Shown here one piece after another: positions 1-10,493 of a stretch of 64,000 nt of DNA. The notes below the pieces were generated by a model. The model made no database searches. It was not told the DNA's origin and was given only the letters and a program-made list of their open reading frames with translations. Position numbers and translations under genes: made by a program. The DNA is taken from the NCBI RefSeq assembly GCF_024223415.1, contig NZ_CP100500.1. The stretch is one strand, 5' to 3'. Source of the stretch: Escherichia coli (GTDB taxonomy: Bacteria; Pseudomonadota; Gammaproteobacteria; Enterobacterales; Enterobacteriaceae). Position 1 is the first letter of the stretch. Each line of letters starts with the position of its first letter.

Positions 1-482
1 ATGCGATCGGCATGGCTGAGAACAAACAGAAAACGCGAGGGATCGGCACCTTCATTCAGTAAAAACTGATGCATGGCGATGTCGGCAGCATACGCACGTT
101 CATCAGCCCGCAGGATCCAGATAATCAGATCCAGTTCGGGCAGTAACTGACTGTAAAGTGCCCGGTATTCCTGATCATGCTGTGGTGTTTCGCCAGTGCC
201 GGGCAGATCGACCAGCGTCATTCTTCGTTCACCGGGCTGAAAGGTAAGACGATGAGCCTGACGGGTGCAGCCGTTCAGCGGATGCGTGGCGCAGACACGG
301 GACTGAAAAATGGCATTGCACAGGCTGCTTTTTCCGGCACCGGATTTACCCATAATGCCAATAACGGGTTCGTACTGAATGACGCTGCGAAGATGTTCAA
401 GGATTTTCTGGCGAATTTCTTCAGGAAGAAAGGTCAGATGTGACTTTACGTGTGCGGAGAGGGAAGAATGGCTGAATGACAT
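1..482 (-). CDS. YeeP/YfjP/YkfA-family GTPase, N-terminal part (3' end lies beyond window start)
   Basis: Minus-strand translation from ATG at 480-482: MSFSHSSLSAHVKSHLTFLPEEIRQKILEHLRSVIQYEPVIGIMGKSGAGKSSLCNAIF...LVDLPGTGE; P-loop GKSGAGKSS and DLPG G3 motif; family typical of CP4-type islands. Confidence 0.75.
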   Translation of the reverse strand, partial: MSFSHSSLSAHVKSHLTFLPEEIRQKILEHLRSVIQYEPVIGIMGKSGAGKSSLCNAIFQSRVCATHPLNGCTRQAHRLTFQPGERRMTLVDLPGTGETPQHDQEYRALYSQLLPELDLIIWILRADERAYAADIAMHQFLLNEGADPSRFLFVLSHADR

Positions 483-582
483 ACCGTTATCCTGTTGATT
501 TCACTGAACCGGATCACATTAATCCGGCCTATCAGTCAGGTAATATGGACGTGAAAATTTTTCCATTGACGGGAAGAAGAGT

Positions 583-1806
583 ATGGCTAAAAACAAAGGT
601 ATCTGTCGGAATAAAAAATGCAGCAATCCTGTTTCAGAATTTGATGAGGCAAATGCCCTGAGGTTATGTGATGATCATTATCAGTTATGGAAACGAAATA
701 AAGAGAACCGTCGGGTCAGGAATATTTGTCGTATAATCAGTAAATATGACAAAAGTCTGGACCGGGAGATATTTGACAGAGTAATAGATGCTGCAAGAAA
801 TCAAACGGGAAAGAGAATTGTTGAGGACGCAAAAATATTACATCAATTGCGCAATTCAAAGCAAGTAAGAAAAAGTCTTCATAATGGAGTACTCCGGTCA
901 CGGGAATGGCTCAATACACAGGAGTTACTGAGAAGAAAAAATATATCTGTTACAGGTGACTCATTTAAATCTTACATAAAGGATATTGTCAGATTATATT
1001 GCTATAAGTTTCTCTACAGCAGAGAATATCTTAATGAAAACGCATGCAAAAAACAATATCAGAGAGTTATTAACCCCAGAGAATTTAATGTTCCGATACT
1101 TCAACTTGAAGTTGCATGGATCAATAATAATTGCCGTTCAAGTGATTCAAGCTCTGATATTATCATCCTTCCCAGGATGATAAGAAGAATGGTTGTATTT
1201 AATGATACGAAGATAAATAAACAATTAGAGGAAATGTTGGGGGGGATAGCACGAAAAAAAGTCGCAGTAAGGAATAAAGGCGGTCTCTATACCAGAATAA
1301 AAAAAGAAAATGATTTTCGTTCTATGGATAGATTTATGGTGGAAATCGAAAATATCATAAGACCTGAAATATTTCCGACATCAATTTACCCGCCTTTTTC
1401 ACTTTCATTTATCGAGAGAGAATTGCCACTACTGAATCTGGCGCACTCACAGTACAAAAGAGCAATAAGTAAAAAAGTGGCGAATTCAATTTTTTATACT
1501 TTGCGAAAAACTCACGTGGCATTATGGCTGCATCTTGAAATGTTTGCTCTTGTGGCATTCATCAAACTGTATACAGGAAAAGGGTTTGAATTCATGAAAA
1601 ACATGTGTGTATTTATAGATTATGATAAAGGGATAATAAAATCCACGCATGAAGAACTGCTGAGTGAAATTAAGTGTAACATTCAGTTGAATTTAAAGGT
1701 GAATTCTGATAATTTTCCTGAATTAATAGAAGTATACAATTCATGCTTTAGTAAAAATATATTGTTGTATGATGTTCAGGATGATGGTTTTAAATGGTGT
1801 TTATGA
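583..1806 (+). CDS. hypothetical protein, 407 aa, AT-rich orphan; N-terminal Cys/His cluster (CRNKKCSNP...CDDH)
   Basis: Long uninterrupted ORF in a markedly AT-rich segment, divergent from the GTPase gene; no recognisable catalytic motif. Confidence 0.5.
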   Translation: MAKNKGICRNKKCSNPVSEFDEANALRLCDDHYQLWKRNKENRRVRNICRIISKYDKSLDREIFDRVIDAARNQTGKRIVEDAKILHQLRNSKQVRKSLHNGVLRSREWLNTQELLRRKNISVTGDSFKSYIKDIVRLYCYKFLYSREYLNENACKKQYQRVINPREFNVPILQLEVAWINNNCRSSDSSSDIIILPRMIRRMVVFNDTKINKQLEEMLGGIARKKVAVRNKGGLYTRIKKENDFRSMDRFMVEIENIIRPEIFPTSIYPPFSLSFIERELPLLNLAHSQYKRAISKKVANSIFYTLRKTHVALWLHLEMFALVAFIKLYTGKGFEFMKNMCVFIDYDKGIIKSTHEELLSEIKCNIQLNLKVNSDNFPELIEVYNSCFSKNILLYDVQDDGFKWCL

Positions 1807-3389
1807 TGTGAAAATATTAAATTTATATTACATTTTAATTATCGACAAAAAACACATAAAGAAATCTAAAGGGAATGAGCGTCAAATGAGCTGATATAGC
1901 GCCAGTTTGGTATGGTCATGTGATTTGATGATTAAAGCTTACGGATAATAACACTCCTCTGTGAGCCATATAAATGAGCATGCCATAATCGTCAGTTCAG
2001 AGATAAAACTGACTGAATGATCTTATGTTATAGTAAGCAGTGTTTACCGGATACGATGACTTATCTCTCTCACATCATATGGATTCACTTTCATGGGGTA
2101 AAGCGATGGGACTACAGACGCTGATTATGATGGTTTGCTGTAAAGTTAGCACAAGTTTTTGCTGTACAGAATACGGAGTAAGAAAAATAATTCCAGAGTA
2201 AATCTGCTCTGCTTTTGAACAGAAAAGATTCATGCTTACCGTGAAAAACTGAAACCAACATTCAGTCTGCATGGATGTCTTAAGATGTTGAGAATGTCGG
2301 ATATGGTATTATATACACCTTTTCCATTAGGTCCTTTTATGTTTTCATTAAGTCGTTTTGTATGTATTCCTCCAGTGATTCATTAGTGCCTGTTTACGCA
2401 TTTACACACTTTTCCCATTAATCTCCTTTAAATGTGTTTCATTACGCATTGCTGTACACATTTTTGAACTGATACACATCCAAGTTAGTAAACCTGTCAG
2501 TTCTGATTTTACGTTAACTAAATCAGTTTAATGCTGCTGTAAAACAATCCTTCCTGTTTAAGCAATCAATCTGCTATTCGATTTTACTGATGTGACGTTT
2601 AACCTTTCCTGAGCTTTGGTTGTTTGTGGTTTTTGGTTTGTGTTTCGACGTTAAGCTGAGAAAAGTATCTTTACGCTAAATCAACCCGAACTTTCCTGAG
2701 GTGATCTGACGTTCTTTTCGATGTGCTTACGACGATTCTGTTAAACGACTTTCTGGATGTTTTGATAACAATCAGATTGAGGCATTAACGATTCCTGACG
2801 TTTTGCTTTTTCATGTAAGGTCATTGTTTTCGTCATGATGTGGTTTTTCTTCTTGCATTGCGAAAGTGTGATGATTGGTTTTGGTTTTTTGATTCAGATG
2901 AGATTTACGTTATCGATGGTTAATCGTTTTTATGGTGAGTAGTGAAACGTAACATTTTCGGGATGAGAAAATCGATTCTGATGGTGATGGGGATGATCGT
3001 GTTACGGCGTTATCTGTAAACAGGTTTTAAACGTGTCATTCGCATTCGTGATTGAGTTGTGTGATTAAGCTGTAGGTTTTGGCGTTGTTGTTGATTTGCA
3101 TTGCCAGGAAGCGTTCTGGTTGCGTTTCTGGTGTTTTGTTCGAATGTTCTGTGGATCCTTTTCCCTTCAGGCTTTTCTCGTCGTCCATGTCGTTTTTAAA
3201 TCCATTCATGCTGTTGTTGCGTGTTTTGCTGCTGTGTGCAGGATTATCTTTTCGTTCCGGGATGGTTTGTTCCGTTTCAATCACTCTTAATCAGAGAGTT
3301 GTAGCATTGCTTAATGACATGATGCCGTAAAGTTTTACCGCGGTGATTAATGATGTGAAGTCAATCCAAATCAACGGAGATCTCTCATC

Positions 3390-4121
3390 ATGAATCAACC
3401 AATACACAATGCTTACTGGTTATCCCGTTTTGACAGCCTTCTCGACAGTGCCCTGTCGCAGCACCGTGCCGTCTCGTTAATCCGGGTGGATTTACGTTTC
3501 CCTGAGTATATGCCTGTCACCATCATGGATCCCGATCCGGATTCAGCGGTGATTTCTCGTTTTTTCGAATCCCTGAAAGCCAAAATCCAGGCTTACCAGC
3601 GGAAAAAACGACGTGCCAACAAGCGTGTGCGTGCAACCACTCTGCGTTATTTCTGGTGTCGGGAGTTTGGCAAGGAAAAAGGCAGGAAACATTATCACGT
3701 GATATTGCTGCTCAACAAAGATACCTGGTGCTCGCCAGGGGATTTCAGCGAACCATCTTCGCTGGCGACGATGATCCTGGAGGCATGGTGCAGCGCCCTG
3801 CATCTTGAGGCCTGGCAGGGTAATGGACTGGTTCATTTTTCCAGGCGGACGCCTTTCCGTAAACCGACATCATCTGATGCTCGCCCTTCTTCCGATGATA
3901 CGCCTTTGTCGGGTGGATGTTCTGATACCAGGAAGGCTTCAGACAAAAAGCCGGGTGAAGCCGCTGTTCTCTGGATCAAGCGTGGTGATGTGGCAGCGAT
4001 GCAGAAAGCCCGGAAAAGAGCCCGTTATCTCGTGAAAAATCAAACGAAGCAGCATAATGGTTCCGGTCAACGTAATTATGGTTGCAGCCGTGGGCCGGGG
4101 CGTCTGCTGGATGGCAGGTGA
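3390..4121 (+). CDS. inovirus Gp2-family protein (YagK/YfjJ-like)
   Basis: 243 aa ORF MNQPIHNAYWLSRFDSLLDSAL...RVDLRFPEY...HYHVILLLNKD, pattern of YfjJ/YagK island proteins; preceded by conserved upstream motif. Confidence 0.65.
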   Translation: MNQPIHNAYWLSRFDSLLDSALSQHRAVSLIRVDLRFPEYMPVTIMDPDPDSAVISRFFESLKAKIQAYQRKKRRANKRVRATTLRYFWCREFGKEKGRKHYHVILLLNKDTWCSPGDFSEPSSLATMILEAWCSALHLEAWQGNGLVHFSRRTPFRKPTSSDARPSSDDTPLSGGCSDTRKASDKKPGEAAVLWIKRGDVAAMQKARKRARYLVKNQTKQHNGSGQRNYGCSRGPGRLLDGR

Positions 4122-4631
4122 AGTCTGTAAAACGGTATCCGGTGCCAGGGGGGGGATATCACGGTAAGGGCGTCAGCCAACGTCTTTCGCTCGTATTCTG
4201 ATAACCCGTCCTGAAGTCATGTATCTGCTTCCATTCTCATGTTCATATTTCTCTTACGCTTTCACTGTCTGTCATCGGAAGTACCGATTTATTTTGGTGC
4301 TGCGCACTTACGGCCATTCACGGAAGAGGATTGTGGTGAACAGTAGGAGTCTGGCTGCTGGCGAGGGAAGGTTCAGGACTGGTATGGGGTTTAGTGCTGG
4401 AGGATGACTTTGAATCCCGGATTGACCAGTGAGGGGGCAGTGAGAGGATGCTCTGGTGTAACAGGTCTGGATTACAAAATATAAAACCGGTTGTACACTC
4501 GTAACGGGTAAAAGGATACGGGCAATAACACGTGGTACCCGGTGAGACTGGCTCTTGTATCACATTACCGGGAATATTCTGGCAGGTGAAATGTTCTGAT
4601 AAGAATCATCCTGAGGGAGGATACAACGGAT

Positions 4632-5084
4632 ATGAACGTTATTGACAGCCGCATTCGTGATGTGAAATTTGGTGAAAATGTGAAAGTCGTCATGCCAGTA
4701 AACCTCTATGAATGTGAACTGGGGGATGATGTTTTTATCGGTCCCTTTGTGGAAATACAGAAGGGATGCATCATTGGCAACCGGAGCCGAATTCAGTCCC
4801 ACAGTTTCATCTGTGAGAACGTCATTTTAGGTGATGCCTGTTTCATCGGTCATGGCGTAACTTTTCCTAATGATCTGTTTAAGTGTGGTGGTCCCGATAC
4901 CTCTGCAGAAAGCTGGATACGCATCGTATTAGGTAACACTGTAACAGTGGGTAGTGGAGCGACCATTTTAACAACAGAAATTTGCAGTGGAGCTGTGATT
5001 GGTGCTGGTAGTGTGGTTACAAAGCCCGTGCTGGTAAAAGGCGTGTATGCGGGTAATCCGGCCAGACTTTTGAGAACGCTTTAA
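4632..5084 (+). CDS. hexapeptide-repeat (left-handed beta-helix) acyl/acetyltransferase
   Basis: 150 aa with repeated [LIV]-G-x-x-x-x hexapeptides (VFIGPFVEI, CIIGNRSRI, VILGDACFIGHGV, VLGNTVTVGSGATI, AVIGAGSVV). Confidence 0.7.
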   Translation: MNVIDSRIRDVKFGENVKVVMPVNLYECELGDDVFIGPFVEIQKGCIIGNRSRIQSHSFICENVILGDACFIGHGVTFPNDLFKCGGPDTSAESWIRIVLGNTVTVGSGATILTTEICSGAVIGAGSVVTKPVLVKGVYAGNPARLLRTL

Positions 5085-5335
5085 TTATTGAATCCAATAT
5101 TAAACCAGACAGACAGTAAACATAATACTGTTCCGGATATCGCTTGCCGCAGGAACCTCCTTAACATTCAGGAAAATAAAGCTTTTATTGCTGCTATGTA
5201 CCATAAGAGACAGAAGTAATTGATTTACCAGTATTACACCTGTTGAAGCTATGGTTATTCACCTTTTATTTTTTGAGCAGCGTATTTATACTTCCCGGAG
5301 CATTGTTTAAATATAATCGCCCGGGATTGATTCGT

Positions 5336-6241
5336 ATGGCTCTTGAACAGGAAATCGCAAACCTTGTAAACGAGTTTGTCGCGGCTGGTCGTCCATCCTG
5401 TCGTGACCAGACCTTTGATGAACGCCGTGCCGGATATATCGCAAGTACTGCTCTGGCCGGCGATACAGAAACCCGCGTAAACATCAGTGATGTGATTATT
5501 GACGATGTTTTATTGCGCATATTTTCGCCTTTAAACGATGATGGGGTGTTATCCGCAATTGTCTATTATCATGGTGGCTGTTTTGTCAGTGGTGGTTTTG
5601 TAACCCATGATAATCAGTTGCGACAGCTTGCTTTCCTGAGCGGTTGTCGTGTCATTGCTGTACAATATCGATTAACGCCGGAACATATTTATCCTGCGGC
5701 ACATGACGATGCTGAACATGCCGCTAATATTGTGTGGCAACACGCAGAAATGTTGAAAGTTGATCGCAACAGAATAACGTTAATGGGGGATAGCGCTGGG
5801 GGACATCTTGCACTGATAACAGCACTGCGGGTTAAAAACATCGGTCAGTGGTTACCGCGAAAATTAATACTTATTTACCCTATGCTGGATGCCACAGCAT
5901 CATGTGATAGTTACAAATTAAACGGTAGTGACTATGTGCTGACAGCAGACACGTTTCTTAGTGGTTATGAGGCTTATTTTTCCGGTCAGGATTTAGAACA
6001 TCCGGAAGTGAGTCCATTATTCAGGAATGATTTCAATGGGTTACCACCTGTTCATGTCATCACAGCGGAATATGACCCATTACGCGATGAAGGTGAGGAA
6101 CTGTTTTCCCGTATGATTCAACAAGGAGTAAAGTGTACCGCCCAGCGTTATCTCGGTGTCATTCACGGTTTTTTCCAGCTTGGCGGCATTAGCCAGACAG
6201 CCCGTAATCTGATGCAGGATATTTGTGGGATTGTTAAATAA
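5336..6241 (+). CDS. alpha/beta-hydrolase esterase/lipase (family IV, HSL-like)
   Basis: HGGC/HGGG oxyanion motif (YYHGGCF) and GDSAGG nucleophile elbow; start placed at MALEQE, the 5243 start adds a hydrophobic extension and is uncertain. Confidence 0.7.
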   Translation: MALEQEIANLVNEFVAAGRPSCRDQTFDERRAGYIASTALAGDTETRVNISDVIIDDVLLRIFSPLNDDGVLSAIVYYHGGCFVSGGFVTHDNQLRQLAFLSGCRVIAVQYRLTPEHIYPAAHDDAEHAANIVWQHAEMLKVDRNRITLMGDSAGGHLALITALRVKNIGQWLPRKLILIYPMLDATASCDSYKLNGSDYVLTADTFLSGYEAYFSGQDLEHPEVSPLFRNDFNGLPPVHVITAEYDPLRDEGEELFSRMIQQGVKCTAQRYLGVIHGFFQLGGISQTARNLMQDICGIVK

Positions 6242-6487
6242 TCACGTAACAAGCAGCTACAGGTAAATTAGCTGAGCATGCATCCATCATTTGTCGCTGC
6301 GATGCCAGACTTCCGGATGCTCATATGTTGTTTTACTTTTGTCAGCATAAATGCTGCGTCGGGACTGGTGAATGGAGATAAGCCATTTTATTATCGACGT
6401 CAGAGAACATACTCACAATGTCGGTATGTTTCTGAAATTAAGGGTAAGTTTTGCGCTGATTACAGTATGCGAAGGAGATCTGGCACA

Positions 6488-8080
6488 ATGAATCCCGCTT
6501 ATATGCAATCCCCCCATTTCCCGGCAGATTTAACATACAGATTATTTCCTCGTAAGCTTGCGTATCTCATTGACGACTTATATGAAAGTACCCAACTTCC
6601 GCTGGATCTCATTTTTAATACTGTACTGGCAACGCTCTCACTCTCCTGTCAGTCATTGGTTGACGTTGTTCATCCTCACACCAACATGCCGGAACCCTGC
6701 TCACTTTATCTGTTGACAATCGCAGAGCCAGGCGCGGGAAAAACAACGATAAACAGACTGGTGATGAACCCCTGTTACGACTTTGCCGATCGACTCATTC
6801 AACAATACGAAGAGAGAAACAAAGATTATAAAACTGAACTACAGATCTGGAATACCCGACAGAAAGCTCTTTCTGCCAGTTTAAGAAAGGCTATTAACCG
6901 GGGGTATCCGGGAGAACAGGAAGAAGAGGCGCTGCGTAATCACGAAAGAAATAAACCGACACGTCCGGTTCGACCGAATTTTATCTATGAAGATGTTTCA
7001 CTTAAAGCGCTTGTGGAAGGACTCAACGAGCATCCGGAGGCGGGAGTTATTTCTGATGAAGCGGTAACTTTTTTCAGAAGCTATCTGAAAAATAGTCCTG
7101 GTCTGTTGAATAAAGCATGGAGTGGACAACCGTTTGATTTTGGACGGGCTGACGAGAAATATCATATCACTCCACGCCTGACATTTTCGCTAATGTCCCA
7201 ACCGGATGTTTTTACGGCTTATATAAATAAAAATGATGTACTGGCCAGGGGAAGCGGATTTCTTTCCCGGTTTCTGTTCAGTCAGGTTGTAAGTTCTTCC
7301 TGGATACGTGATTATACGAGAGGTGAGTTCAGAACAATACCAACCCTGGAGAATTTTCATAAAAAGATTAACGGATTTCTGTTAAGCCATAACATTAATT
7401 CCCCCGGCATGAGCACCGAAAGGAAGACATTAAAACTTGCGAAGAAAGCGTTGGGGGAGTGGCAGGAAAACCAGAGTAAGATTGAAAGCAAAGCGCTTGC
7501 AGGAGGGGAGTGGGAACACATCAGAGATATTGTTCTGAAAGCAGGTTCTAATATACTGAGGATAGCGGGTTTATTCACCTTCTATGGCAATAAAGATGCT
7601 GAGGAAATTGAATCAATTGCGCTTTTTAACGCCATGCATCTCATGGACTGGTATCTGGAGGAGGCAAGCGCAATATTTTATCCCATGTCTGAGCGACGCC
7701 AGTTTGAGCAGGATGCCTGTGAACTGTATGCATGGATTATGACCCGAATCAGGCAGAATAACTGGTGTGCTATCAGGAAAACAGATATTGAAAGATATGG
7801 TCCCAATCGACTGAGAAGAGCAGAAAAGCTTACACCTGTACTCAATCAGTTAATTGCTCAGAATTATTTCTGTATCATCAAAATGCGCTCGCATCAGGCA
7901 CTTTATGTTTCTGTTCGTAACAATAATGGTTACCTCCTTCCTTTCGGCACAATGTCTTACGAACCGTTTGATGTTGTACCCTCCTTGTATAGTCATAATG
8001 CGAAAATATATCCCGTTAATATTCCACCGGAATTAATCCAGTCATTTGCGTTACCTTTTTCAGCCTATAACTTATTCTGA
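6488..8080 (+). CDS. DUF3987-type protein (YfjI-like, primase C-terminal-like) with P-loop-like AEPGAGKTT
   Basis: ORF with IAEPGAGKTT motif; family recognised by similarity to YfjI of CP4-57-type islands; start at MNPAYMQ chosen over upstream 6278 start. Confidence 0.6.
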   Translation: MNPAYMQSPHFPADLTYRLFPRKLAYLIDDLYESTQLPLDLIFNTVLATLSLSCQSLVDVVHPHTNMPEPCSLYLLTIAEPGAGKTTINRLVMNPCYDFADRLIQQYEERNKDYKTELQIWNTRQKALSASLRKAINRGYPGEQEEEALRNHERNKPTRPVRPNFIYEDVSLKALVEGLNEHPEAGVISDEAVTFFRSYLKNSPGLLNKAWSGQPFDFGRADEKYHITPRLTFSLMSQPDVFTAYINKNDVLARGSGFLSRFLFSQVVSSSWIRDYTRGEFRTIPTLENFHKKINGFLLSHNINSPGMSTERKTLKLAKKALGEWQENQSKIESKALAGGEWEHIRDIVLKAGSNILRIAGLFTFYGNKDAEEIESIALFNAMHLMDWYLEEASAIFYPMSERRQFEQDACELYAWIMTRIRQNNWCAIRKTDIERYGPNRLRRAEKLTPVLNQLIAQNYFCIIKMRSHQALYVSVRNNNGYLLPFGTMSYEPFDVVPSLYSHNAKIYPVNIPPELIQSFALPFSAYNLF

Positions 8081-8860
8081 AATAAACCAACACAGATGAA
8101 ACGAAAAAAAACAACATTCATTCGAAGGTTGGTGGTAAGGAGTTTGCATATCCTGCATCTGTGCAAATATTCACCAGTTATGGGGCGCGAACGAAAATTT
8201 CTCTGAAAAAATCGCTACGGTAGCAACAGTAGCAGCACATGCACCATGTCTGTTATTTGATTTTGTTTTCATAATGACCTGTTGTCAAAGCTGATTGAAT
8301 ACAGGAGTGTGCGCACTGGTGGAAGAGTGGCTTTCGTTTTTGGTTATTCGAAAGAAAATCGAAATATTGTTTTTAACATAGCTGAAGCTAATCATATAAC
8401 CATATTTTTTGAGTTTTTATATATAACTTTGTTTGATTCTTGTCGTAATGAGTGCTGGCGTATATGACGATGTCGCTCTCTTTCTGAATAACGAAAGGTT
8501 ATCAGTCTTTTACTGACAAGAGATGCTGTTCAGGTTTCAATGGGAGATTGAAGAAAAACGATTTGATATTTTCCGTGAGAGAATGTCTTGTCAGGTTCAT
8601 ATTCATAACGGATAATTTCTTATTTTCACTCATCAGACATGGATAATTTTAATTTAGGTTTATTACTATAATTAGTATCTGTTCCTTTATTTTTATCCAT
8701 CTATCCCTTTATTTTTCATCTATCTATCCTTTTATTATTAGTATCTGTATTTTTATTATTGGCATCTGTCTATTTATTTTTATCATTCTCTCCTCTCTGT
8801 CTTTACTCTCATTGCTCTTACTCTCATTCTGTTATTTCTACTCGTGTTATCGTGTTCACT

Positions 8861-8940
8861 CTATCACTCTATCACTCTATCACTCTATCACTCTATCACT
8901 CTATCACTCTATCACTCTATCACTCTATCACTCTATCACT
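8861..8940. repeat. octanucleotide microsatellite (CTATCACT) x10 perfect copies, with degenerate CT-rich flanks 8681-8950
   Basis: Counted directly: 10 head-to-tail copies of ctatcact from 8861 to 8940, 11th copy degenerate (ctatccat). Confidence 0.95.
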
Positions 8941-9689
8941 CTATCCATCTCTCAATCATAACGATTGTCACTCATATGATACTCAGCCATGTTATTTTCT
9001 ACTGCTCTGCTGAGCTTATCTGTCTGTTCTCATCTTCAGTGAAACAGCACCTGATTTTACTCTTATCCATCATGAACTGTCTTTGTTCAACGATGATGGT
9101 ATGTCTGATATGTGTTAACCATTTTGATGGGTATCGTTGATTATCCGATGGTTAAGCTTCGATAAGGTTATCCATAGAACAGTGTGGGGTAAGCAACATG
9201 ATCCCTGATGATATTTGTTCCGTGTTGTCTTGTTGTTTAAGCGACAGGAAATATGTCAATGGCATGTTTTATTCTGCTGCCGTGAGCCATGCATGTTCTG
9301 AAGAACAGATTGAATGAGCGCATGTGAGTTTATTACGTTGGCCTTGTACACGTTTTTTTAGAACCACTGAGAGCAAGTTTGTAGTTTATGATGCTATTGG
9401 TCGTAATATGTTTCTTGAACTTTTGATCGTGGGTTTTTATCTCGTATTTTTCAGCATTTCTCGGTGTTGTATTGCGTCGATATTTTCTTTATTCCCGTTA
9501 ATATCATCTCGTCAGTGTCCATTCCTTTCATCACAATGCGTATCGTTAATAATCTGTTGTATCCATCCGCCTACAGCATGCCTGATAAATACCGTCTGTC
9601 AGTTATTACCGTTTTAGATCTGATTATGAGCGAAGGTATTCATTCGCTGACAGAACTTAAAACGTCATTAACTTACAGGAGTTATCAGC

Positions 9690-10259
9690 ATGCCTCAGTC
9701 TTACACACCAGACTGGTTTTTTACCGCCTTACTTGACCATCACATCGATCAAATGATGGCTCGCTATTCCTGTCTGCGGGCCTTACGGATGGATTTCTTC
9801 TACAGGAAAGAGACGCCTGATTTCTTACAACCTGATCACCGCTGGCTTGAATTGCAGTTGCGTATGCTGCTGGACCAGGTTGAACGGTTTGAAAATATGG
9901 TTGGTTTCTTCTGGGTGATTGAATGGACGGCTGATCATGGTTTTCATGCGCATGTGGTTTTCTGGATCGATCGTCAGAGGGTGAAAAAATATATCCCTTT
10001 GCGGAGCGGATAACCGAATGCTGGCGGGCTATTACGTATAACTGTGGTTCGGCGCACCGCTGTACATACCAGCCGCATTATGCATACAACATCAACATTC
10101 CCGTGCGCCACAACGATCCTGAAAGCATCGATAATATTCGCGGTGCCCTGCATTATCTGGCGAAAGAAGAGCAAAAAGACGGACTGTGTGCATACGGCTG
10201 CAGCGAAGTGCCTGAACGTCCTGCTGCAGGGCGACCACGCAAGCTTCACGTCTGAAGCT
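9690..10259 (+). pseudogene. inovirus Gp2-family gene, frameshifted
   Basis: N-terminal 107 aa ORF (…FWVIEWTADHGFHAHVVFWIDRQ…) stops at 10013; family-like continuation (ITYNCGSAHRCTYQPHYAYNINIPV...ALHYLAKEEQ) runs in a different frame to 10259. Confidence 0.55.
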
Positions 10260-10493
10260 TAAACCCTGAACCTCCGCACCTGGAAACAAGCCATCGGTAA
10301 AAACTTACCGCATTGCTTAATGATGTGAACCGAAGTCAACGGAGTTCATTCACCCTGAATGTTCTTTCCTGATATTCCCGCTCAGCGTCGGTTCTTCACC
10401 TGTTCCATCAACCTCATCCGCAGCCTGTAACCCGTCAGCCCATCCATCCCCGGGCAGGACGCGTTGTGGGCTGCGCATAACGGAGCATATCCT

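What the first reader, a model, noticed from the sequence alone, without database searches (positions are those of the whole stretch)
583..1806. AT-rich 407-aa orphan gene beside the YeeP-like GTPase
Intact long ORF with strongly AT-biased composition relative to neighbours, divergent from the GTPase gene, with an N-terminal Cys/His cluster and no recognisable enzymatic motif. Compositionally foreign, single-gene cargo in islands of this type is often an abortive-infection or defense protein.
Basis: inference. Interest (0 to 1): 0.55.

Follow-up and report, generated by a model that had tools for sequence, protein, structure and literature searches.

The report
Swappable dead-HNH gene beside island GTPase
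The AT-rich 407-codon gene is real but is no orphan: it is one of several very different versions of a zinc-finger protein descended from HNH DNA-cutting enzymes, it fills a fixed slot next to a GTPase gene in a common family of E. coli genomic islands, and this version has lost the residues needed to cut DNA.

Summary
The ORF (583-1806, +, 407 aa, GC 0.34 against 0.52 in the flanks) is intact. It is present in 974 of 5,426 complete E. coli genomes and is under purifying selection (dN/dS 0.28). It is not an orphan. It belongs to an unnamed family restricted to Enterobacterales, with 43 clusters at 50% identity. Distant members keep a complete HNH motif and match phage HNH families and McrA/Cas9-type HNH motifs.

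In the window's clade the three catalytic positions are replaced (His->Trp179, Asn->Asp192, Asn->Arg201). The N-terminal CCCH zinc finger and a C-terminal helical domain are conserved.

The gene is a single-gene cassette at a fixed slot, divergent from the YfjP-type GTPase of CP4-57-like islands. Nucleotide similarity between islands (90-98%) stops sharply at position 557, about 25 nt before the ATG. Beyond that point, islands carry family members only 18-23% identical to this one. All six sampled loci hold a family member, and by nucleotide counts about 94% of such GTPase loci do.

Low GC is a stable trait of the clade, not a sign of recent import. There is no match to known defence families. 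The function is untested; I favour a non-cutting nucleic-acid-binding specificity factor. A defence role is neither shown nor excluded.

The parts
583..1806 (+). ORF X, 407 aa, basic (pI 9.6). It is the class-A allele of an HNH-derived zinc-finger protein family.
604..678 (+). N-terminal CCCH zinc finger (C8, C13, C29, H32; motif GxCRxxxCxxPxSxxxEANxxRLCxxHY).
   Evidence: Invariant columns; pLDDT about 91-93 for residues 11-40.
1099..1236 (+). Degenerate HNH (beta-beta-alpha) unit, residues about 173-218. Trp179, Asp192 and Arg201 occupy the His, Asn and Asn positions of the intact motif.
   Evidence: hhalign clade A against clade B, probability 99.9%, E 3.5e-35. Alignment columns. AF2 strands 175-179 and 193-197 and helix 198-218. 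HNH identity of clade B.
1285..1803 (+). C-terminal helical domain (residues about 235-407) with the family motifs LPLxxL, LExxAL and YNSCFS. No structural relative was found.
483..557 (.). Conserved backbone control region shared by all allele classes. It holds the palindrome CCGGAT-N7-ATCCGG (509-527) and a -10-like TAATAT (541-546).
558..2166 (+). Swapped cassette: 25-nt leader with a Shine-Dalgarno-like GGGAAGAAGAG (571-581), ORF X, and about 360 nt of 3' flank. The left breakpoint is 557/558 in all comparisons. The right breakpoint is about 2167 against class S and about 2508 against class C.
1..482 (-). 5' part (160 codons) of the YfjP/YeeP-type GTPase gene, cut by the window edge. It is the first gene of the DUF932-antirestriction-RadC-DUF987-CbeA/CbtA-DUF4942 module.
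2167..3389 (.). AT-rich stretch with no convincing gene (an annotated 82-aa ORF lies at 3036-3284, -). It is partly shared between allele classes and leads to the YfjJ/inovirus-Gp2-like gene at 3390-4121.

Best explanation
What it is (shown, about 0.85):
- ORF X is the class-A allele of an uncharacterised, Enterobacterales-restricted protein family. The family descends from zinc-finger HNH endonucleases.
- It is a single-gene cassette at a fixed slot of CP4-57-like integrative islands, divergent from the YfjP-type GTPase gene.
- The predicted promoter region belongs to the conserved island backbone.
- Alternative cassettes at the same slot encode deeply divergent homologues.

How it works (inferred, about 0.35-0.4):
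- The HNH general base and both Asn positions are replaced (Trp179, Asp192, Arg201), so the protein most likely no longer cleaves DNA.
- It keeps a CCCH zinc finger and a strongly basic N-terminal half, so it probably binds nucleic acid.
- The conserved C-terminal helical domain probably serves as a partner-binding or sensing surface.
- Alleles are exchanged without any change in the neighbouring GTPase, AlpA or YfjJ genes, and the protein evolves about twice as fast as its neighbours. I therefore think its target lies outside the island: DNA or proteins of a helper phage or a competing mobile element. It would act by binding (exclusion or interference) rather than by cutting.
For: Real, maintained gene:
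- Intact in 967 of 974 genomes that carry it.
- dN/dS 0.28, uniform along the gene.

Family and HNH descent:
- Profile search finds 43 clusters.
- Clade A against clade B by hhalign: probability 99.9%, E 3.5e-35 over 369 columns.
- Clade B keeps invariant H, GG, N, N and N positions.
- Clade B matches PHROG HNH families at 8e-8 and 8.8e-7.
- Clade B matches Pfam HNH_4 in 6 of 13 members.
- With a motif-only profile of clade B, all 10 PDB matches are HNH nucleases, including McrA, 4h9d, Cas8f-HNH and Cas9.

Loss of catalytic residues in all 13 clade-A members.

Fixed slot:
- The GTPase|X junction is intact in 970 genomes.
- The same synteny holds in 33-36%-identical relatives.
- Clade B lies directly after AlpA.

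Cassette swapping:
- Similarity of 90-98% ends at 557 in four loci.
- The replacement genes are family members: hmmsearch 1.3e-58 to 8.7e-17, hhalign 97.9%.
- Class A (1,065 places), class S (816) and class C (516) together approach the 2,539 GTPase places.

No co-variation with neighbours: strain GF60 has GTPase 98.6%, AlpA 100% and DUF932 98.2% identical, while its slot protein is 18% identical.

Faster evolution: X is 34-36% identical across genera, against 52-68% for the GTPase and 72-73% for DUF932.

Basic protein: pI 9.6.
Against: - No experiment exists. DNA binding, expression and any phenotype are all inferred.
- There is no PADLOC match for any family member.
- The tight link to AlpA, including overlapping ORFs in L018, and to the GTPase fits an island-internal role equally well.
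- The family is absent from phage records and from all but one plasmid record, so there is no independent sign of an arms race.
- dN/dS within class A is purifying, not positive.
Confidence: 0.4

Rival explanations
1. Island-internal factor. X is an accessory DNA-binding protein of the island's own life cycle. It would act in control of excision, replication or transfer together with AlpA and the HUH/YfjJ or DUF3987/YfjI replication genes, or as a regulator of the divergent GTPase operon.
For: - X lies directly next to AlpA in most relatives. The order is X->AlpA->Rep in clade A and Int..AlpA->X in clade B, with the AlpA and X ORFs overlapping in L018.
- The spacing to the GTPase start is a constant 97-100 nt, with a palindrome near the -35 position.
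- The family occurs only in chromosomal islands.
Against: - Alleles 18-23% identical, one class lacking the zinc finger, are exchanged while the operator-like palindrome, GTPase, AlpA and YfjJ stay 89-100% identical. A factor that recognises island DNA or an island partner should co-vary with it.
- K-12 CP4-57 has AlpA, YfjI, YfjJ and YfjP but no family member, so X is dispensable for the backbone.
Confidence: 0.3
2. One reading: a stand-alone abortive-infection or defence effector with enzymatic (nuclease) activity, perhaps using a non-canonical active site or working with the GTPase as a two-gene system.
For: - It sits in an island class that carries defence cargo. McrBC, TIR, type I R-M, GmrSD and Hachiman-like genes lie nearby in relatives, and K-12 has RnlAB and AbpAB in the equivalent interval.
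- It descends from HNH nucleases.
- E176 and D192 are invariant acidic residues in the clade.
- Nearly every YfjP-type GTPase locus is paired with a family member.
Against: - The catalytic His and both Asn positions are replaced in all 13 clade-A members.
- There are no PADLOC hits.
- The GTPase does not co-vary with the allele class.
- Some clade-B loci lack the GTPase altogether.
Confidence: 0.15
3. Decaying remnant: a former HNH gene that lost activity and persists by hitch-hiking, without function.
For: - The catalytic residues are lost.
- It is AT-rich and possibly silenced.
- It is followed by about 1.5 kb of gene-poor DNA.
Against: - It is full length in 967 of 974 genomes.
- dN/dS is 0.28 in every 100-codon block.
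- 35 positions are invariant across clade-A members that are only 26-36% identical to the window protein.
- The AF2 model is confident: pLDDT 84, pTM 0.72.
Confidence: 0.05

Closest known systems
Zinc-finger HNH endonucleases of phages (PHROG 1271 and 8660) and McrA-type HNH motifs
   Same: Distant family members share the architecture of zinc finger(s) followed by the HNH motif LExxH-YPxSxGGxN-xxxN-xxxxP-xxIN. They match these families. The window protein is homologous to them along its full length.
   Different: The window clade lacks the His and both Asn residues and the second zinc ribbon. All members carry an extra helical C-terminal domain of about 170 aa with no known relative. None is found in phage genomes.
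HNH effectors of two-gene defence systems (Septu PtuB with the PtuA ATPase; McrBC as a GTPase-plus-nuclease pair). Comparison from general knowledge.
   Same: An HNH-derived protein is encoded next to a P-loop NTPase inside a mobile island.
   Different: There is no PADLOC match to PtuB or any other model. The NTPase is a small Era/EngA-like GTPase, not an ABC or AAA+ protein. The genes are divergent, not an operon, in this clade. The nuclease site is dead. The GTPase does not co-vary with the allele class.
RnlAB and AbpAB in E. coli K-12 CP4-57
   Same: They occupy the equivalent interval between yfjJ and yfjP of the same island family.
   Different: They are unrelated protein families. K-12 has no member of the X family.
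Polymorphic master regulators of phage satellites (SaPI Stl). Analogy from general knowledge.
   Same: Highly divergent alleles occupy a fixed slot, divergently transcribed from a conserved island operon. Different alleles are thought to recognise different external partners.

Membership tests
HNH (beta-beta-alpha-Me) endonuclease superfamily | Homology to proteins that carry the HNH motif | tested here: met
   hhalign clade A against clade B gives probability 99.9%, E 3.5e-35. Clade B matches PHROG HNH families at 8e-8 and 8.8e-7, Pfam HNH_4 in 6 of 13 members, and only HNH nucleases among PDB motif hits.
HNH (beta-beta-alpha-Me) endonuclease superfamily | Catalytic histidine (general base) at the end of strand 1 | tested here: not met
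   The column holding the invariant His157 of clade B is Trp179 in the window, and W, F, Y or K in the other 12 clade-A members.
HNH (beta-beta-alpha-Me) endonuclease superfamily | Structural Asn and the metal-ligand Asn/His of the helix | tested here: not met
   N171 and N180 of clade B correspond to Asp192 and Arg201, both invariant in clade A.
HNH (beta-beta-alpha-Me) endonuclease superfamily | Beta-beta-alpha fold | tested here: inconclusive
Known anti-phage defence systems (PADLOC-DB 2.0) | Match to a model of a known or candidate defence protein | tested here: not met
   Zero families at E <= 1 for the window protein. No significant family match for nine other family members from all classes; the only listed hit was PDC-M29B at E 0.033 for P0040.
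Variable island cargo (hotspot gene) | Unrelated genes occupy the same slot in related islands | tested here: not met
   The slot is exchanged, but in 6 of 6 sampled E. coli loci the occupant is a homologue of the same family. Only K-12 CP4-57 lacks one.
Orphan (ORFan) gene | No homologues outside a narrow lineage | tested here: not met
   43 clusters at 50% identity across Enterobacterales genera.
Functional GTPase-partner pair | Physical or genetic dependence on the YfjP-type GTPase | not testable with these tools
   Only adjacency is shown. There is no co-variation, and some relatives lack the GTPase.

The most novel reading that the evidence does not exclude
The X family is a previously unrecognised polymorphic recognition module of CP4-57-like islands. 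An HNH-derived scaffold would have diversified into active-nuclease, dead-nuclease and zinc-finger-less forms, each recognising a different helper phage or rival element. This would either trigger the island (satellite-style induction sensor) or block the intruder. It would be expressed from a backbone promoter next to the YfjP GTPase in about a third of E. coli genomes (1,882 of 5,426 carry such a GTPase locus).
Probability: 0.2. Interest if true: 0.7.

Novelty: new variant of a known kind. Interest (0 to 1): 0.45.

Why it matters
CP4-57-like islands are among the commonest mobile elements of E. coli. They carry many defence systems, yet how they are induced, move and interact with phages is unknown.

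This work names a conserved but hypervariable gene slot in them, present at roughly 2,400 loci in 5,426 genomes. It shows that the occupants form one HNH-derived family with active and inactivated forms. It also defines the exact recombination boundary (557/558) and the shared promoter.

That gives a concrete, testable handle. Swapping alleles under the native promoter, and reverting W179H/D192N/R201N, would show whether these islands sense or exclude phages, or whether the protein serves the island's own mobility.

For genome annotation, about 1,000 'hypothetical protein' entries for this allele class alone can be described as inactivated HNH-family zinc-finger proteins.

Tried and rejected
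Direct family assignment of the window protein failed:
- Pfam, NCBIfam, PADLOC and PDB sequence searches gave nothing.
- PHROG gave only an HNH hit at E 0.56 on residues 22-57.

Structure comparison led nowhere:
- Foldseek AFDB50 returned only family members.

Profile searches of PDB sequences with the whole family or the whole clade B gave nothing relevant. Only the 62-column motif profile recovered HNH nucleases.

Other negatives:
- One UniRef entry for a Klebsiella homologue is named 'Reverse transcriptase'. No RT motif or Pfam hit supports it, so I rejected it as a misannotation.
- Rfam found no RNA family in 1-10,500.
- There is no AlpA remnant directly downstream of X in the window; the AlpA homologue lies at 11,179-11,358.
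- Clade A was not found in IMG/VR. The family is absent from phage records and all but one plasmid record.
- Literature searches for the accessions and for yfjP/yeeP/ykfA found nothing on this protein. One preprint describes the island class in general terms.
- The idea that X autoregulates through the palindrome at 509-527 was set aside, because the palindrome is unchanged between allele classes.

Full report
**Observation.**
- The ORF is present exactly as described: 583..1806 on the + strand, ATG start, 407 aa.
- Its GC content is 0.34 (GC3 0.31). The window average is 0.515, and the GTPase fragment on its left and the YfjJ-like gene on its right are both 0.52.
- The left neighbour, 482..1 on the - strand, is the first 160 codons of a YfjP/YeeP-type GTPase, cut by the window edge. 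It is 160/160 identical to WP_000010380.1 and carries the P-loop GKSGAGKSS.
- The two genes are divergent and 100 nt apart.
- A Shine-Dalgarno-like GGGAAGAAGAG (571-581) precedes the ATG.
- The window comes from an E. coli chromosome. The exact protein is in NCBI as hypothetical protein WP_254539372.1.

**Surroundings.**
- RefSeq annotation of near-identical loci shows a CP4-57-like integrative island. Left of the ORF lie the GTPase, DUF932, an antirestriction protein, RadC, DUF987, YeeU/CbtA and DUF4942.
- To its right lie an AT-rich gene-poor stretch and an inovirus-Gp2/YfjJ-type protein (3390-4121). Further right are an acyltransferase, an alpha/beta hydrolase and YfjI. Then come a second Gp2-like gene, AlpA (about 11,179-11,358), a split UvrD-like helicase and an Rpn nuclease.
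- A 2025 preprint describes this class of element in general terms, as carrying an integrase, an excisionase, an HUH endonuclease and a RadC/ArdB/CbtA 'moron' module. It does not discuss this gene.

**Not an orphan, and maintained.**
- The gene occurs in 974 of 5,426 complete E. coli genomes. It is full length in 967, and is always annotated 'hypothetical protein'.
- There are two alleles, about 99% and about 91% nucleotide identity to the window. Between them dN/dS is 0.28, with similar values in every 100-codon block.
- Homologues of 26-36% identity exist in Klebsiella, Citrobacter and metagenomes.
- A profile search of 1.84 billion representative proteins finds 43 clusters. All identifiable ones are Enterobacterales.

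**What the protein is.**
- No library recognises the window protein directly.
- An alignment of 30 family members shows three features.
- First, there is a nearly invariant N-terminal CCCH zinc finger (C8, C13, C29, H32).
- Second, there is a central block that in the distant clade B reads LExxH-YPNSxGGxN-xxxN-xIIAP-xxINR. This is a complete HNH (H-N-N) motif, and H, GG, N, N, P and N are invariant there.
- Third, there is a conserved helical C-terminal domain ending in YNSCFS.
- Clade B members match phage HNH families (PHROG 1271 at 8e-8, PHROG 8660 at 8.8e-7) and, weakly, the HNH domains of IscB and Cas9d at exactly this block.
- A 62-column profile of the block retrieves only HNH nucleases from the PDB: McrA, 4h9d, Cas8f-HNH fusions and Cas9. 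E-values are 0.19-1.4, and 10 of 10 hits are HNH.
- The same block matches Pfam HNH_4 in 6 of 13 members.
- Clade A, which includes the window protein, is homologous to clade B over 369 columns (hhalign probability 99.9%, E 3.5e-35).
- In clade A the His column is Trp179 (W, F, Y or K in the other members). The two Asn columns are Asp192 and Arg201, both invariant within the clade.
- AlphaFold2 gives a confident model (pLDDT 84.3, pTM 0.72). It keeps a beta-beta-alpha unit at 175-218.
- The protein is basic (pI 9.6), most strongly in its N-terminal half.

**Position in the island.**
- In five relatives only 33-36% identical, the order GTPase(-) / 97-100 nt / X(+) / AlpA(+) / Rep-like(+) is kept.
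- In clade B the gene follows AlpA directly. The order is Int..AlpA->X, and the ORFs overlap in one case. It is followed by the GTPase or by DUF3944/WYL/YfjT...DUF932.
- In E. coli the GTPase|X junction is intact in 970 genomes.
- The family is absent from 50,697 phage records and from all but one of 72,556 plasmid records.

**The slot is swapped, always for a homologue.**
- Strain GF60 has an island 99% identical to the window from 3321 to 16,500 and 97.7% identical over 1-557. It carries a different gene at the slot.
- Five further GTPase loci were sampled. Two carried class A, and three carried other 'hypothetical proteins' of 310-376 aa.
- All four non-A occupants are members of the same family: hmmsearch 1.3e-58, 8.2e-19, 1.9e-17 and 8.7e-17, and hhalign 97.9%.
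- They are only 18-23% identical to X, while the adjacent GTPase is 87-99% identical.
- In all four loci, nucleotide similarity ends at window position 557, after ...GGTAATATGGACGTGAAAA, 25 nt before the ATG. It resumes at about 2167 (class S) or about 2508 (class C).
- The conserved part upstream of the break holds a palindrome, CCGGAT-N7-ATCCGG (509-527), and a -10-like TAATAT (541-546).
- By nucleotide search, class A occupies 1,065 places, class S and its variants 816, and class C 516. There are 2,539 GTPase places of this type in total.
- Class S proteins lack the zinc finger. They are always followed by a convergent gene of 270-290 aa with an RHH-like C-terminus.
- K-12 CP4-57 is an exception. 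It has no family member, and it holds AbpAB and RnlAB between yfjJ and yfjP.

**Composition.** All clade-A orthologues have GC 0.28-0.34, next to GTPase genes of 0.45-0.54, across divergence down to 34% protein identity. The AT bias is therefore a long-standing property of the gene and not a mark of recent acquisition.

**Interpretation.**
- Shown: the gene is real, maintained and widespread.
- Shown: it descends from HNH nucleases and has lost the catalytic residues.
- Shown: it is one allele class of a polymorphic single-gene cassette at a fixed backbone slot.
- Inferred: the promoter in the conserved 483-557 region drives it. This rests on conserved sequence only.
- Inferred: it binds nucleic acid through the zinc finger and basic N-terminal half, and does not cut.
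- Inferred: its target lies outside the island. The argument is that alleles change with no accompanying change in GTPase, AlpA, DUF932, YfjJ or the palindrome, and that X evolves about twice as fast as its neighbours across genera.
- I give the identity and anatomy about 0.85 and the outward-directed binding mechanism about 0.35-0.4.
- The main rival (0.3) is an island-internal role with AlpA in excision, replication or regulation. Its close linkage to AlpA supports that reading; the lack of co-variation and its absence from K-12 CP4-57 argue against it.
- A strict enzymatic abortive-infection effector gets 0.15. This is weakened by the dead motif and the absence of PADLOC hits for any member.
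- A functionless remnant gets 0.05, because intactness, dN/dS and 35 invariant residues argue against it.

**Comparison and novelty.**
- The closest known relatives are zinc-finger HNH endonucleases.
- The family differs from them by a unique C-terminal domain, by its restriction to chromosomal islands, and, in this clade, by inactivation of the nuclease.
- It is not a member of any described defence system.
- I found no literature on it.
- I rate it a new variant of a known kind.
- The surprising element is the allele-swapping slot shared by roughly 2,400 loci, not the single gene.

Noticed in passing
window 483-557 (palindrome 509-527; TAATAT 541-546): An operator-like palindrome, CCGGAT-N7-ATCCGG, lies upstream of a -10-like box. 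It is identical in all E. coli allele classes. Inverted repeats with the same 7-nt spacing but different sequence occur at the equivalent place in a Citrobacter locus (ATCCTGGC-N7-GCCAGGAT); a looser repeat (N13 spacing) occurs in a metagenome locus. Which protein binds it is unknown.
   Followed up: partly
L025 7538-8410(-), L026 5045-5899(-), L030 5016-5825(-): The zinc-finger-less class-S alleles always come with a convergent 270-290-aa partner gene. Its C-terminus looks like a ribbon-helix-helix DNA-binding motif (weak Pfam RepB-RCR_reg, E 0.26). This may compensate for the missing zinc finger.
   Followed up: partly
window 1807-3389: About 1.5 kb of AT-rich DNA with no convincing ORF and no Rfam match. 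RefSeq annotates an 82-aa protein at 3036-3284(-). The commoner class-A allele (L012) instead has a convergent 176-aa gene (WP_000778605), which is missing here.
   Followed up: partly
window 12212-13345 and 13342-15057: A UvrD-like helicase is split into two overlapping ORFs. It is annotated as frameshifted in strain GF60 and gives only weak GajB-type PADLOC hits.
   Followed up: no
window 4632-5084 and 5243-6241: A hexapeptide-repeat acyltransferase and a LipP1/hormone-sensitive-lipase-type alpha/beta hydrolase sit between the YfjJ-like and YfjI genes as island cargo.
   Followed up: no
window 3390-4121, about 10464-11069, and 11179-11358: The island carries two inovirus-Gp2/YfjJ-like genes. 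Its AlpA homologue lies about 9 kb from X, whereas in other genera AlpA directly follows X.
   Followed up: partly
L001 11598-12482(-) (full-length copy of the window's GTPase): The small YfjP-type GTPase gives a PADLOC hit to LeoBC of the dynamin-like Eleos system (E 3.8e-7) over residues 183-284, outside the P-loop region.
   Followed up: no
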